Origin: Octopus sinensis
Lineage: Eukaryota
Length of the DNA stretch: 64,000 nt
NCBI RefSeq assembly: GCF_006345805.1
Contig: NC_043003.1
Coordinates: forward strand, 51,522,001-51,586,000
Direction: 5' to 3'
Shown: piece after piece, positions 31,310 through 34,300 of the stretch
How positions within the stretch are numbered: position 1 is the first letter of the stretch
How the letters are laid out: every line of letters begins with the position of its first letter
Position numbers: made by a program

Positions 31310-34300
31310 TCACAGAAAACATACAGACAAAGGGAAAAAGAAAACCAAAGATTAGTAAAACATCAGAAATATAGTCTTTCAAGATATTTAGGCGTAGGAG
31401 TGGCTGTGTGGTAAGTAGCTTGCTTACAAACCACATGGTTCCGGGTTCAGTCCCACTGCGAGGCACCTTGGGCAAGTGTCTTCTACTATAGCCTCAGTCC
31501 GACCAAAGCCTTGTGAGTGGATTTGGTAGACGGAAACTGAAAGAAGCCCGTCATATATATGTATATGTGCGTGTTTGTGTGCCTGTGTTTGTCCCCGCAA
31601 CATCGCTTGACAACCGATGCTGGTGTGTTTATGTCTCCATAACTTAGTGGTTCGACAAAAAAGAGACCGATAAAATAAGTACTAGGCTTACAAAGAATAA
31701 GTCCTGGGGTCGATTTGATCGACTAAAGGCAGTGCTCCAGCATGGCTACAGTCACATGACTGAAACAAGTAAAAGAGTATATATATATAATAATAGTTAT
31801 CGCCATACTAATATGGCATTCTTATAAAAATAAGAATAAAGCTGTCCGCTTATTAGCTCATGGAGCTAATAAGCGGACAGCTTTATTCTTATTTTTATAA
31901 GAATGCCATATTAGTATGGCGATAACTATTATTTTCCGGAAACGCTGCCGTTGTTCTCTTTTAGAGAGACTTAGTAATTTTAATATTTCTATTATTGAAA
32001 ACAAGTGGATGTATTCCACCGAAGCTAGGTAAATAAAACCTTCGAACAGAGATTGTCAGAAGCGACACCTACTGGTCTGGCTACGCTGCATTGAAAAGGG
32101 GCAATACCCCGAAACGCGTCTGTAGCTGCCGGTCAAGTAGTGTGGAGCGACTGACCTCCCTTGTTCGAAGGTTATATGGATACAGTTTGTGTATCAAATA
32201 GCTAACTTAAGGCGATGGCCTCATGGAGCTAATAAGCGGACAGCTTTATTCTTATTTTTATAAGAATGCCATATTAGTATGGCGATAACTATTATTTTCC
32301 GGAAACGCTGCCGTTGTTCTCTTTTAGAGAGACTTAGTAATTTTAATATTTATATATATATATCATCATCATCGTAGACACACACACACACACACACACA
32401 AACAACTACATGATCGTTCAGACAAAGTAGAAGGGTTAGTACACAGCTTTTGTAGGTCCTGCAAAATGGTGAACTGTGGTTAAGTTTGAATTTCTGCAGG
32501 TGGTTGCCAGTAGGAAAATATTGATAAGAATGTACTAAGGAAGGGACTTTTATAAGGCTGTTCAACCAGTAAGAAACAGCCAAATCTCTCAATACTGTTA
32601 AAAATAATGAAAGACATATTTGATGATTATGGATAGAAAAGTGTTGTTCATTGGTCACAGGAAGAAGTTTCATTAACCCTTTAGTGTTCGCATTATTCTG
32701 CCAAAATGAATGCTTCTTCATCCACATTGTTTTGAATTAATCATGCATTATCTTGTAGCTATGAGATTTTGATGAGGTAGCTGTTAATGTTTAAAGCGAT
32801 ATTGTAGGGTTGGTGTGAGAGACCAGATATGGCTAGTTTGAACATAAAACAGGCAGAAAATTTTTGGCCGGATATGGCCGGTTTAAACGCTAAAGGTTTA
32901 AGGTTCACCTGGGGTTAAACAATAACCACACACAACAGCCAGCTAACAAAGGAATTTCTCTATCAGTTATAGGCAACTTTCTGAACTTTTAACCATTAAA
33001 ACAATAAACATACTCAGTGCATCAAGGGAAGGCATTTATTCTTTATAAGTTAACAATATAAAAGTCAGATGCTCTAGTGGTATATTCCACTAGAAACAAA
33101 CAAGAGGAAATATCTGTCAATACAATAAAGTTCACATGTTCCATCTTTGAGAAGGTTTGAACCAAGCACTGATTCAACATTCCTCAGCAAATCAATTCCT
33201 GTCCCATCCATTTTCACCCTATAGATCAGTAGCTATCGTGTAACCTTAATCAGCTTTCACTTGTTAGTGTTTAATCTGGCCATATCTAGCCAAATATTTT
33301 ACTTGTGTTTTATGCTAAAACTGACCAGATCCAACATCTCACACCTAACCTACAATGTCATTCTAAAAATATACAAAAACACCAATTGAAATCTTGAAGC
33401 TACACGATAATGTGTGATTAATTCAAAACAATGTGAATATATAAGCAATATATTTGACTAAGAAATCTGAATGCTAAAGAGTTAATCAGATTTATGACAT
33501 TACTAATTCTTCCTTTTCATAAACATAATGAAATGGTAAATGGTTTACAATACAAAAGAAATCATTTTAAACTTGCTAAAATAATATTCGTAGTGGTTTA
33601 CACGATTGGAATTATAATTTCAAAGTGCTTCATAGTGTCATAGTGAAAATTTGATCAAAGATTTTGCAACCAAAAGAAAAAAAAAAAAAAAAAAAACAAA
33701 CAAACTCAAATATAAATAAAGTAGAAGTATACACAAATAAACGTTATTTTCAATCTTACTGTTATTTTTGTTTCATTTTTAAAAATAGAAATTTATTTTA
33801 TGGTTAATCATTGTTTATATTTTGAATTATATAGATATGGGTGCACCAAAAGAATATTGAGCGCTTAGGGCCTACCCACCTCTATACACTTTTACAAAGA
33901 CTCTGTTCCTTAGATTAGATAATTGCTTATCACCCTCACCCAAGTCCTCCAGTCGTGGTCATCACCCATTTTCTGTCCTTTATCCCCAAGTTTGAATAAC
34001 AAATATTTTGGCACAGCCATTTTGGTGTCACTGACTTGACATCAGATATTTTATCTTAATGTTTCTCTCTCTGTTTGTGTCTGAGTAGTGAAAGTGTGTG
34101 GCTTAGTGGTTAGAGTACTCAGCTCACAGTCGTAAGGTCATGGCATTCAATTCCCACTGGAGGTGCGTTGTCTCTTTGGGCAAGATGCTTTACTTCACAC
34201 CTCTCCAGTCCATTCAGCTGGCAAAAATGAGTCTTACCTGTAATTCAAAGGGCCAGTCTTATCACACTCTTTGTGGAATACTCAGCCACTGGCATATTAA

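What the first reader, a model, noticed from the sequence alone, without database searches (positions are those of the whole stretch)
31789..32351. Candidate non-LTR retrozyme: 363-nt unit with an intact U3-A8 minimal hammerhead ribozyme
Seen: 1.36 tandem copies of a 363-bp non-coding unit, a perfect 71-bp fold-back at its start, and (TA)n on both sides. A complete hammerhead lies at 32085-32126 (gctgca UUGAAAA gggg-caata-cccc GAAA cgcg UC tgtagc). It is enclosed by extra complementary arms (aaccttcgaaca 32037-48 / tgttcgaaggtt 32162-73), which suggests a rod-like RNA. Established: C3-G8 is a tertiary pair that can covary to U3-A8. Minimal type I hammerheads with palindromic stem III occur in Penelope-like element termini and in metazoan non-LTR retrozymes, whose monomers are a few hundred nt, form circular RNAs and cleave best as dimers. 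Inference: a young retrozyme family mobilised in trans by a Penelope-like RT, possibly undescribed in this lineage.
Basis: partly seen in the sequence, partly recalled or inferred. Interest (0 to 1): 0.88.

Follow-up and report, generated by a model that had tools for sequence, protein, structure and literature searches.

The report
Hammerhead-ribozyme retroelement insertion in a cephalopod intron
A small non-coding mobile element carrying a self-cutting RNA motif (a hammerhead ribozyme with a rare but known core variant) has recently landed in a TA-repeat inside an intron of a mollusc gene; it looks like a new example of an already known class of elements (animal retrozymes) rather than a new kind of thing.

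Summary
There are 1.36 direct copies of a 363-bp non-coding unit, a perfect 71-bp fold-back, (TA)n on both sides, and a complete type I hammerhead motif at 32085-32126 with a U3-A8 core. A strict descriptor finds this one site in the window and none in 300 shuffles; the chance expectation is about 7e-6 per window. Helix sizes are the canonical metazoan ones: helix I 6 bp, helix II 4 bp, helix III 1 bp with a palindromic tetraloop. Two copies are predicted to form the double hammerhead.

The partial tandem, the inverted piece at the 5' end and the (TA)n target together match published Penelope-like-element insertions. The element sits in the tail of an older SINE, in an intron of a membralin gene, antisense, in a cephalopod-like mollusc.

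Three results weigh against it. No Rfam hammerhead model reports the motif, even at E<=10. The window holds no second copy, and no animal genome was searchable. The locus has only one ribozyme, so it cannot yield circles itself. U3-A8 hammerheads, mollusc retrozymes and the Penelope link are all published.

Verdict: a probable young retrozyme-type insertion, a new member of a known kind. Catalysis and family size are untested.

The parts
31400..31788 (+). Older SINE copy whose 3' tail is the target of the insertion
   Evidence: The left flank gives 23 further HSPs in the window; long ones are 68-88% identical. Paralogues end at the same point and are followed by variable short tails, including (TA)n and (GAT)n.
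31778..31789 (.). (TA)6 left flank, the target microsatellite. Base 31789 is ambiguous between the flank and the element.
   Evidence: Read directly; TA-repeat inverted pairs I4/I5.
31789..31859 (-). Inverted 71-nt copy of unit segment 31863-31933, abutting the 5' end of the direct copies
   Evidence: 100% complementary arms with a 3-nt spacer. The axis is the unit's own micro-hairpin CTC-ATG-GAG, which is also present at 32220-32228.
31857..32219 (+). One complete 363-nt non-coding unit
   Evidence: Spacing 363. No ORF above 38 aa. MFE -121.2, z -7.1. As a circle -122.0, 63% paired, GC 41%.
32033..32177 (+). Long imperfect hairpin whose tip is the hammerhead (a distal extension of helix I)
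   Evidence: 36-nt arms, 72% complementary. MFE -65.7, z -7.5, with helix I and helix II formed in the MFE.
32085..32126 (+). Type I hammerhead motif. Helix I: 32085-90 / 32121-26. Core: U3 U4 G5 A6 A7 A8 A9 at 32091-97. Helix II: 32098-101 / 32107-10, with 5-nt loop 2 at 32102-06. G12 A13 A14 A15.1 at 32111-14. Palindromic tetraloop: 32115-18. U16.1 and C17 at 32119-20. Predicted cleavage between 32120 and 32121.
   Evidence: Sequence. Only hit of the strict descriptor, with 0 in 300 shuffles. Chance 7e-6 per window. The homodimer cofold forms the intermolecular 6-bp helix III. Not found by Rfam.
32220..32351 (+). Partial second unit (first 132-136 nt only), which ends before the hammerhead
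   Evidence: Direct repeat D1; BLAST self-hits.
32351..32373 (.). (TA)6.5 then (CAT)3: the right flank, a continuation of the SINE tail / microsatellite
   Evidence: tails of SINE paralogues.
31109..31309 (-). Nearest downstream exon of the host membralin gene, about 480 nt from the element. The upstream exon is at 40553-40678.
   Evidence: tblastn of cuttlefish membralin P0001 against the window: 10 exon-like HSPs from 57480 down to 15199 on the minus strand. Pfam Membralin hits.

Best explanation
This is one recent insertion of a small (363-nt unit) non-coding retroelement that carries a type I hammerhead ribozyme with a U3-A8 core. In the literature's terms it is an animal non-LTR retrozyme, or a close derivative of a Penelope-like-element (PLE) terminal repeat.

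Inferred life cycle:
1. Master arrays elsewhere in the genome are transcribed on the + strand.
2. Hammerheads of neighbouring units pair through the 6-nt palindrome that spans A15.1 to U16.1 and form a double hammerhead.
3. They cut after the C that corresponds to 32120.
4. The 363-nt monomer is circularised by a host tRNA ligase.
5. A PLE reverse transcriptase/GIY-YIG endonuclease nicks a (TA)n tract and copies the circular or multimeric RNA for more than one turn, here 1.36 units.
6. At the end of synthesis the cDNA snaps back on the unit's own CTC-ATG-GAG micro-hairpin and copies 71 nt of itself. This gives the perfect fold-back.

The copy in this window is a dead end for circle production because it holds a single ribozyme. 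It lies antisense in a membralin intron, so the host pre-mRNA does not carry the ribozyme strand.

Shown: the motif, the repeats, the predicted folds, the target site, the lack of coding capacity and the gene context. Inferred: transcription, cleavage, circularisation, the identity of the reverse transcriptase, the snap-back step, and the existence of other copies.
For: Motif:
- All invariant positions are present. C3/G8 is replaced by the isosteric U3/A8, a covariation reported in several natural hammerheads and active in vitro (Perreault 2011, passage). About 1,300 such motifs were reported in Schistosoma PLEs (Cervera & de la Pena 2014).
- Helix I is 6 bp, helix II 4 bp, helix III 1 bp with a palindromic 4-nt loop. 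That is exactly the 'canonical' metazoan type I architecture described and the HHR_Amex1 form.
- G10.1-C11.1 is present.
- Loop 2 differs by one A from the 6-nt loop II printed for a widely used full-length hammerhead in PMC6412130. The descriptor did not ask for this feature.

Statistics: 1 hit in the window against 0 in 300 shuffles; 7e-6 expected per window.

Structure:
- Helix I and helix II form in the MFE of the 145-nt arm and of the whole unit.
- The homodimer of 32070-32141 folds to -58.3 against 2 x -26.1 kcal/mol, with an intermolecular helix III.

Element properties: 363 nt, GC 41%, non-coding, 63% paired. Published values are 170-400 nt, GC below 50% and highly self-paired, with mussel units of 350-390 bp.

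Insertion signature: a partial tandem, an inverted copy adjacent to the 5' end and a (TA)n target. Craig 2021 describes PLE insertions as partial tandems, often with an inverted 5'-truncated copy at the 5' end, and a (TA)n bias for Naiad/Neptune-type endonucleases.

Template: the direct copies run uninterrupted through the cleavage site and through a unit junction, so the template was longer than one unit or circular.

Recency: about 200 compared positions among the three copies of the 71-nt segment and the two copies of the next 61 nt show 0 differences. SINE paralogues differ by 12-32%.

Host plausibility:
- The host is a mollusc whose membralin is closest to a cuttlefish's: 88% on the best exon, against 39-74% for the other 26 of 27 hits.
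- A 2026 repeat annotation of Octopus vulgaris lists 31 Penelope-like families with 336 recently active insertions.
Against: - No Rfam hammerhead family reports the site: not at gathering thresholds over the whole window, and not at E<=10 on 751 nt or on 80 nt.
- No second copy exists in the 64-kb window, and no animal genome collection could be searched. Copy number, arrays with two or more ribozymes and covariation in the helices are all unknown.
- The locus has only one ribozyme.
- The strong self-complementarity is the same on both strands: z -5.6 and -5.6 for the unit, -6.0 and -5.4 for the arm, with mononucleotide shuffles. It is therefore not evidence for selection on the + RNA.
- The outer end of the inverted piece (unit position 31933) and the 3' end of the direct copies (unit position about 31988-31992) do not coincide. 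It is not a textbook inverted copy sharing the element's 3' end.
- The target-site duplication cannot be read inside (TA)n.
- PLE-type hammerheads with weak helix III cleave poorly in vitro, and U3-A8 activity depends on context (my recollection).
- A perfect 71-bp palindrome could be an assembly artefact. Craig 2021 notes that such structures cause assembly problems.
Confidence: 0.62

Rival explanations
1. It is a solo, heavily 5'-truncated remnant of an autonomous Penelope-like element (its pseudo-LTR with the ribozyme), not a separate non-autonomous retrozyme family.
For: Cervera & de la Pena 2014 state that most PLE-type hammerheads are dispersed single motifs, probably from truncated PLEs. 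PLE insertions are highly 5'-truncated, partially tandem and often carry an inverted copy. Retrozyme consensus sequences match PLE termini in Xenopus, 24 of 57 families. The locus has one ribozyme only.
Against: The repeat period is 363 nt, so the copied template itself repeated every 363 nt. Full PLE bodies are 3.4-4.4 kb. The ribozyme has a helix III loop and canonical helix sizes, unlike the helix-III-less min-HHRs typical of metazoan PLEs. No RT or GIY-YIG coding sequence adjoins it. The only RT in the window is a LINE 27 kb away.
Confidence: 0.17
2. The motif is a genuine hammerhead descendant but catalytically dead or nearly so. On this reading the U3-A8 core plus 1-bp helix III is a decayed relic, and the element no longer makes circles.
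For: Rfam models do not score it. Metazoan PLE hammerheads with weak helix III showed little or no cleavage as monomers and low cleavage as dimers. An axolotl monomer with the same helix III type cleaved 6% in one hour.
Against: U3 and A8 changed together, which is the compensated state, not a single hit. Every other invariant position is intact. The insertion shows no decay: 0 differences in about 200 duplicated positions. The dimer fold is favoured by about 6 kcal/mol. Axolotl dimers cleave efficiently.
Confidence: 0.3
3. It is not a mobile element. A unique sequence underwent a local fold-back/duplication rearrangement, or the assembler created one, and the hammerhead-like string is a coincidence.
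For: It is a single locus in the window. Perfect palindromes and 100% identical duplications are typical of replication template-switch events and of assembly errors. There is no Rfam support.
Against: Even genome-wide, fewer than one chance match is expected. The motif also sits at the tip of a 145-nt hairpin (z -7.5), inside the repeated unit, inside a (TA)n tract that interrupts the tail of a SINE whose paralogues lack the insert. The combination of tandem, inverted copy and (TA)n is the published PLE signature.
Confidence: 0.1
4. It is a MITE, fold-back or Helitron-type DNA transposon inserted at TA.
For: TA-rich flanks on both sides; a long inverted repeat at one end.
Against: The two termini are not inverted repeats of each other. 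The only terminal inverted pairs are the (TA)n tracts themselves (I4, I5), and the matching copy of the 71-nt arm ends 55 nt inside the right end. There are no TC...CTRR ends (the Helitron end motif is recalled, not from a call). The internal structure is direct and tandem with a 363-nt period.
Confidence: 0.03

Closest known systems
Metazoan non-LTR retrozymes (Cervera & de la Pena 2020, NAR; Results read), in particular the mussel Mytilus galloprovincialis 350-390-bp repeats and the axolotl Rtz_331 / HHR_Amex1
   Same: A non-coding unit of a few hundred nt (363), GC below 50%, a type I hammerhead and a highly self-paired predicted circle. Helix III is a single base pair capped by a palindromic tetraloop, as in HHR_Amex1, which implies action as a dimer. 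The host is a mollusc, like the mussel.
   Different: Only 1.36 units and one ribozyme are present here, where the published elements form arrays of up to 62 or 300 units. The core is U3-A8. An inverted 71-nt piece sits at the 5' end. Expression and circles are untested. The host is a cephalopod, for which I found no retrozyme report.
Penelope-like elements and their pseudo-LTR hammerheads (Cervera & de la Pena 2014; Craig et al. 2021)
   Same: The U3-A8 covariation was first noted in Schistosoma Cercyon PLE hammerheads. The insertion architecture is the same: partial tandem, inverted copy at the 5' end and a (TA)n target.
   Different: There is no RT/GIY-YIG ORF. The unit is 363 nt, not kilobases. 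The ribozyme keeps helix III and canonical helix sizes, whereas metazoan PLE min-HHRs usually lack helix III and have a longer helix II with an extra base after A9.
Newt/salamander satellite 2 and Schistosoma Sm-alpha hammerhead repeats (described)
   Same: Type I hammerhead in a repeat of about 330 bp. Weak helix III and dimeric cleavage in newts. A SINE-like non-autonomous retroelement in Schistosoma.
   Different: Those have the C3-G8 core and occur in thousands of copies. No sequence relationship was tested here.
Animal retrozymes as non-autonomous PLE derivatives (Li, Clavereau & Pollet, bioRxiv 2026; abstract, Results part 1 and Discussion read)
   Same: The same proposed partnership: the retrozyme uses PLE machinery.
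   Different: That work is phylogenetic and covers vertebrates (plus 3 insects and 1 coral). It does not use insertion footprints, and by its own statement it did not examine other invertebrates.

Membership tests
Hammerhead ribozyme, type I | Conserved core C3 U4 G5 A6 N7 G8 A9 ... G12 A13 A14, an A15.1-U16.1 pair and H17 at the cleavage site | tested here: met
   11 of 13 listed positions match the consensus. C3 and G8 are both changed, to the compensating U3-A8 pair. That covariation is documented in natural hammerheads. 'Met' therefore applies only if the U3-A8 variant is accepted.
Hammerhead ribozyme, type I | Three helices around the core, with helix I open and helices II and III closed; G10.1-C11.1 | tested here: met
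   Helix I is 6 bp (one G-U). Helix II is 4 bp starting with G-C, with a 5-nt loop. Helix III is 1 bp plus the palindromic tetraloop. Helices I and II appear in the MFE. Helix III forms only between two copies.
Hammerhead ribozyme, type I | Recognised by the curated covariance models (Rfam hammerhead families) | tested here: not met
   No hammerhead hit at gathering score or at E<=10 on 751 nt or 80 nt. I could not test how far the two core changes and the 1-bp helix III explain this.
Hammerhead ribozyme, type I | Loop 1 / loop 2 tertiary contact nucleotides | tested here: inconclusive
   Helix I is followed after exactly 6 bp by an internal loop: 3 nt on the 5' strand and 1 nt on the 3' strand. 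Loop 2 is one A shorter than the loop II printed in PMC6412130. I recall the 5'-strand bulge of the Schistosoma ribozyme as the same three letters as here, but no call verified this.
Hammerhead ribozyme, type I | Site-specific self-cleavage | not testable with these tools
   Needs in vitro transcription of monomer and dimer.
Metazoan non-LTR retrozyme | Tandem repeats of about 150-450 bp, each unit with a type I hammerhead | tested here: inconclusive
   The period of 363 is within range, but only 1.36 units and one ribozyme are at this locus. There are no other loci in the window, and the host genome was not searchable.
Metazoan non-LTR retrozyme | No LTR/PBS/PPT, non-coding, GC below 50% | tested here: met
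   No ORF above 38 aa inside; GC 41%; no long terminal direct repeats beyond the unit repeat. PBS and PPT were not searched for specifically.
Metazoan non-LTR retrozyme | Stable, highly self-paired predicted circular RNA | tested here: met
   Circular MFE -122.0 kcal/mol, z -7.1 against 100 shuffles, 63% paired. The complement folds equally well relative to its shuffles.
Metazoan non-LTR retrozyme | Expressed as linear and circular RNA of unit length | not testable with these tools
   No transcriptome access.
Metazoan non-LTR retrozyme | Co-occurrence with PLEs in the same genome | not tested
   I saw no PLE among the 33 ORFs of at least 110 aa in the window (read by eye), of which 10 were scanned with Pfam. 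The literature reports recently active Penelope-like families in Octopus vulgaris and Naiad remnants in cephalopods, but the host species of this window is not established.
PLE-type insertion | Partial tandem, an inverted 5'-truncated copy adjacent to the 5' end, and a microsatellite ((TA)n) target | tested here: met
   1.36 direct copies, a 71-nt inverted copy with a 3-nt spacer at the 5' end, and (TA)n on both sides, against the description in Craig 2021. Caveat: the outer end of the inverted piece is 55-59 nt away, in unit coordinates, from the 3' end of the direct copies.
PLE-type insertion | RT plus GIY-YIG endonuclease ORF | tested here: not met
   The element has no such ORF, so it is at best non-autonomous.

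The most novel reading that the evidence does not exclude
This locus may be a fresh insertion footprint of a still-active cephalopod retrozyme family with a U3-A8 canonical-architecture hammerhead. Its anatomy has three parts: a cDNA longer than one unit that runs through the cleavage site, a snap-back inverted end at a native micro-hairpin, and a (TA)n target. If the reading holds, that anatomy is direct structural evidence that animal retrozyme circles or multimers are integrated by Penelope-like RT/GIY-YIG machinery. So far that link has been argued only from co-occurrence and sequence similarity in vertebrates. A side effect would be a perfect 71-bp double-stranded RNA hairpin in the membralin pre-mRNA of an animal known for heavy RNA editing.
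Probability: 0.3. Interest if true: 0.55.

Novelty: new member of a known kind. Interest (0 to 1): 0.4.

Why it matters
If other copies exist, this would extend hammerhead-bearing retrozymes to cephalopods. I found no report of that in the searchable literature. The 2026 octopus repeat annotation does not mention ribozymes in its main text.

An isolated, undecayed insertion with clean junctions is also useful in its own right. The retrozyme literature says the repeats carry no motif that reveals which reverse transcriptase mobilises them. The junctions here (more than one unit copied, inverted 5' piece, (TA)n target) point to PLE machinery.

It does not change the general picture. The ribozyme class, the core variant, the element class and the proposed partner are all published.

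Tried and rejected
Rfam scans: the whole window at gathering thresholds gave 0 matches. The 751-nt region at E<=10 gave 41 matches, none of them a hammerhead. All the strong ones are generic hairpin matches of the 71-bp palindrome to miRNA or other hairpin models, and all are below their gathering scores. The 80 nt around the motif gave 0 matches.

Other searches and tests:
- Tandem Repeats Finder did not report the 363-bp period.
- BLAST of the element against the window gave no other copy, only hits of 12-32 nt.
- Strand test: I expected the + strand to fold better, as a sign of RNA-level selection. In raw energy it does (-121.2 vs -105.0). Relative to shuffles the two strands are equal, so I dropped that argument.
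- ESM Atlas look-up of a membralin exon gave no usable hit.
- ARAGORN found no tRNA in the window, so the origin of the SINE was not clarified.

Literature:
- Two papers were opened for the biochemistry of U3-A8 and gave nothing specific. My statements on in vitro rescue rest on the passage and on recall.
- A paper opened for a printed Schistosoma ribozyme sequence had none.

Considered and rejected: MITE/Helitron (no terminal inverted repeats); a pre-miRNA gene for the fold-back (the hairpin exists only through the inverted duplication and is not part of the native unit).

Not done:
- No search of any animal genome, transcriptome or read set, because none is offered.
- Supplementary files of the papers were not requested. 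The supplementary motif lists of Cervera & de la Pena 2014/2020 and Perreault 2011 could contain cephalopod hammerheads that I could not see.
- No control run of a canonical-core version of the motif through Rfam, because that would need a changed sequence.
- No exhaustive Pfam scan of all reading frames for a PLE.
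Full report
WHAT IS THERE.
- A 136-nt direct repeat (31857-31992 and 32220-32355) with start-to-start spacing 363 defines 1.36 head-to-tail copies of a 363-nt unit. The only mismatch lies at the right boundary.
- Immediately to the left lies a perfect 71-nt inverted copy (31789-31859) of the first 71 nt of the unit (31863-31933), with a 3-nt spacer.
- The whole 563-bp block is bracketed by (TA)6 (31778-31789) and (TA)6.5 (32351-32363).
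- Tandem Repeats Finder does not list the 363-bp period, as expected below two copies.
- The element has no ORF longer than 38 codons and no other copy in the 64-kb window.

THE RIBOZYME MOTIF. Positions 32085-32126 on the + strand read as follows:
- helix I 5' strand (6 nt);
- U3 U4 G5 A6 A7 A8 A9;
- helix II of 4 G-C pairs closed by a 5-nt loop;
- G12 A13 A14 A15.1;
- a palindromic tetraloop;
- U16.1 C17;
- helix I 3' strand (6 nt, one G-U).

Every invariant hammerhead position is present except C3 and G8, and these are changed together to U and A.

I wrote a descriptor that accepts either pair. It asks for a 6-bp helix I, a helix II of at least 4 bp starting with G-C, GAAA, a loop 3 of 0, 2 or 4 nt that is palindromic, and UH. 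It finds this one site on the two strands of the window and none in 300 dinucleotide-preserving shuffles. A far looser version finds 8 in 300 shuffles.

An i.i.d. calculation with the window's base composition gives 7e-6 expected per window. For a 2.5-Gb genome it gives 0.27, or 0.015 for the form actually seen. The motif is therefore not a chance string, even allowing that the first stage screened many windows.

Against this, no Rfam hammerhead model reports it. That holds at gathering thresholds and at E<=10 on 751 nt or on 80 nt. I could not determine how much of that is due to the two core changes and the one-pair helix III. It stays on the negative side of the ledger.

STRUCTURE.
- The motif sits at the tip of a 145-nt imperfect hairpin (32033-32177; MFE -65.7 kcal/mol, z -7.5, 0 of 200 shuffles as stable). 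Helices I and II are present in the MFE.
- After exactly 6 bp, helix I opens into a small internal loop and then continues. This is the layout of canonical metazoan type I hammerheads as described by Cervera & de la Pena 2014.
- The full unit folds to -121.2 (z -7.1). As a circle it folds to -122.0, with 63% of bases paired and 41% GC.
- Two copies of 32070-32141 cofold to -58.3, against 2 x -26.1 for monomers. They form the 6-bp intermolecular helix III and exchange helix I strands, i.e. the double hammerhead.
- One argument I had hoped for failed. Relative to their own shuffles, the + and - strands fold equally well. The self-complementarity is a property of the DNA and does not single out the + RNA.

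THE INSERTION SITE.
- The left flank is a copy of an abundant SINE: 23 further HSPs in the window, with long ones 68-88% identical.
- Paralogues end at the same position and carry variable short tails such as (TA)n or (GAT)n.
- Here the tail reads (TA)n, then the element, then (TA)n(CAT)3. The element therefore landed inside the (TA)n tail of an older SINE. A target-site duplication cannot be read in a microsatellite.
- The three copies of the 71-nt segment and the two copies of the next 61 nt show no difference in about 200 compared positions. The insertion is much younger than the SINE family, or the repeats are an artefact.
- The axis of the fold-back is the unit's own CTC-ATG-GAG micro-hairpin, which also occurs at 32220-32228 in the second copy. 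That is what a snap-back of a nascent strand on itself would give. This step is inference.

GENE AND HOST.
- Pfam finds Membralin in two minus-strand ORFs.
- tblastn with the best database relative maps ten exon-like segments from 57480 down to 15199 on the minus strand.
- The element lies in the intron between exons 40553-40678 and 31109-31309, about 480 nt from the latter. The ribozyme strand is antisense to the gene.
- In a protein search, 27 of 138 candidates passed E<=1e-10. The best is a cuttlefish membralin (88% identity on that exon). The other 26 are named mollusc proteins or unnamed ones, at 39-74%.
- The host is therefore a mollusc nearest to cephalopods. I did not establish the species. 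My impression that the SINE is an octopus SINE is recollection only.

COMPARISON WITH WHAT IS KNOWN.
- Cervera & de la Pena 2020 (Results read) define animal non-LTR retrozymes: tandem 150-450-bp non-coding repeats with type I hammerheads and GC below 50%, expressed as 170-400-nt self-paired circles.
  - Mussel units are 350-390 bp.
  - The axolotl HHR_Amex1 has a single-pair helix III with a palindromic tetraloop and cleaves well only as a dimer.
- The same authors in 2014 (text read) reported the U3-A8 covariation in about 1,300 Schistosoma PLE hammerheads.
- Perreault et al. 2011 (passage) state that C3/G8 covary to U3/A8 in several natural examples and that such variants were already known to be active in vitro.
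- Craig et al. 2021 (passages) describe PLE insertions as 5'-truncated partial tandems, often with an inverted 5'-truncated copy at the 5' end. They also report a strong bias for microsatellites, (TA)n for Naiads and probably Neptune-type endonucleases.
- The review notes that retrozyme repeats carry no motif that reveals their mobilising enzyme, and that a circular template would yield cDNAs longer than one unit.
- A 2026 preprint (abstract, Results part 1 and Discussion) argues from co-occurrence and sequence similarity in vertebrates that retrozymes are non-autonomous PLE derivatives.
- A 2026 repeat annotation of Octopus vulgaris lists 31 Penelope-like families with 336 recently active insertions, and its main text contains neither 'hammerhead' nor 'ribozyme'.
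- A search for 'retrozyme' with 'cephalopod' found 2 records holding both words, listed as one work (Craig 2021 and its preprint), which uses them in unrelated contexts. 'Hammerhead ribozyme' with 'octopus' returned 5 papers, 4 of them listed, and none of the listed titles or abstracts describes such an element.

INTERPRETATION. The most economical reading is a recent insertion of a retrozyme-type element.
- The template was longer than one unit or circular, because the direct copies run through both a unit junction and the uncleaved ribozyme site.
- The integration signature is that of PLE machinery.
- The ribozyme is of the canonical metazoan architecture with a compensated core variant and a helix III that requires dimerisation.
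- This particular copy has one ribozyme, so it cannot release unit-length RNA. It is a product, not a source.

Two caveats matter. The outer end of the inverted piece does not coincide with the 3' end of the direct copies (55-59 nt apart in unit coordinates). Nothing about RNA, cleavage or copy number has been observed.

The main rival is a solo remnant of an autonomous PLE terminal repeat. The 363-nt period and the helix III argue against it. A chance motif in a rearranged or misassembled unique sequence is unlikely on the numbers but cannot be excluded without reads or other copies.

VERDICT. This is a new member of a known kind, possibly the first in cephalopods, and not a new mechanism. 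Interest is moderate. It would rise if a genome-wide search showed an active family whose junctions repeat the PLE-type footprint seen here.

Noticed in passing
window 15199-57480, minus strand: A membralin (TMEM259-like) gene with ten exon-like tblastn segments. The first coding exon (57127-57798) carries long poly-Gln/poly-Ala tracts, including a 21-bp repeat at 57485-57555.
   Followed up: partly
window 31789-31933: The perfect 71-bp fold-back scores 39.1 bits against Rfam mir-965 (gathering score 43, E 2e-6) on both strands, with a run of identical letters in the mature-arm region. It also scores 64 bits against MIR4208 (gathering score 140). This is probably a generic hairpin effect, since the hairpin exists only through the inverted duplication, but the mir-965 score is close to threshold.
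   Followed up: no
window 31789-31933, minus-strand transcript: The host pre-mRNA would contain a perfect 71-bp double-stranded hairpin about 480 nt upstream of exon 31309-31109. That is a potential substrate for RNA editing or dicing in a cephalopod. Speculative.
   Followed up: no
window 59448-62411 (+); fragments at 37045-37455 (+) and 2087-2425 (-): A LINE-type retrotransposon with an AP-endonuclease domain (Exo_endo_phos, E 7e-10), an RVT_1 domain (E 2e-10) and a weak PHD-like finger. The reading frame is broken into several ORFs. The two fragment ORFs look related by eye; Pfam found no family in either of them.
   Followed up: partly
window 29969-30116, 35170-35697, 55851-56147, 62676-63122: SINE-associated internal tandem repeats with periods of 61-63, 159 and 192 bp. 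They translate into recurring GAFYVPPAQVP-like pseudo-ORFs on both strands. The SINE family is very abundant in the window.
   Followed up: no
window 11699-12871: A minisatellite of 22.6 copies of a 52-bp unit, 96% matches.
   Followed up: no
window 32364-32404: (CAT)3 followed by (AC)13.5 directly right of the (TA)n target. The insertion site is a compound microsatellite.
   Followed up: no
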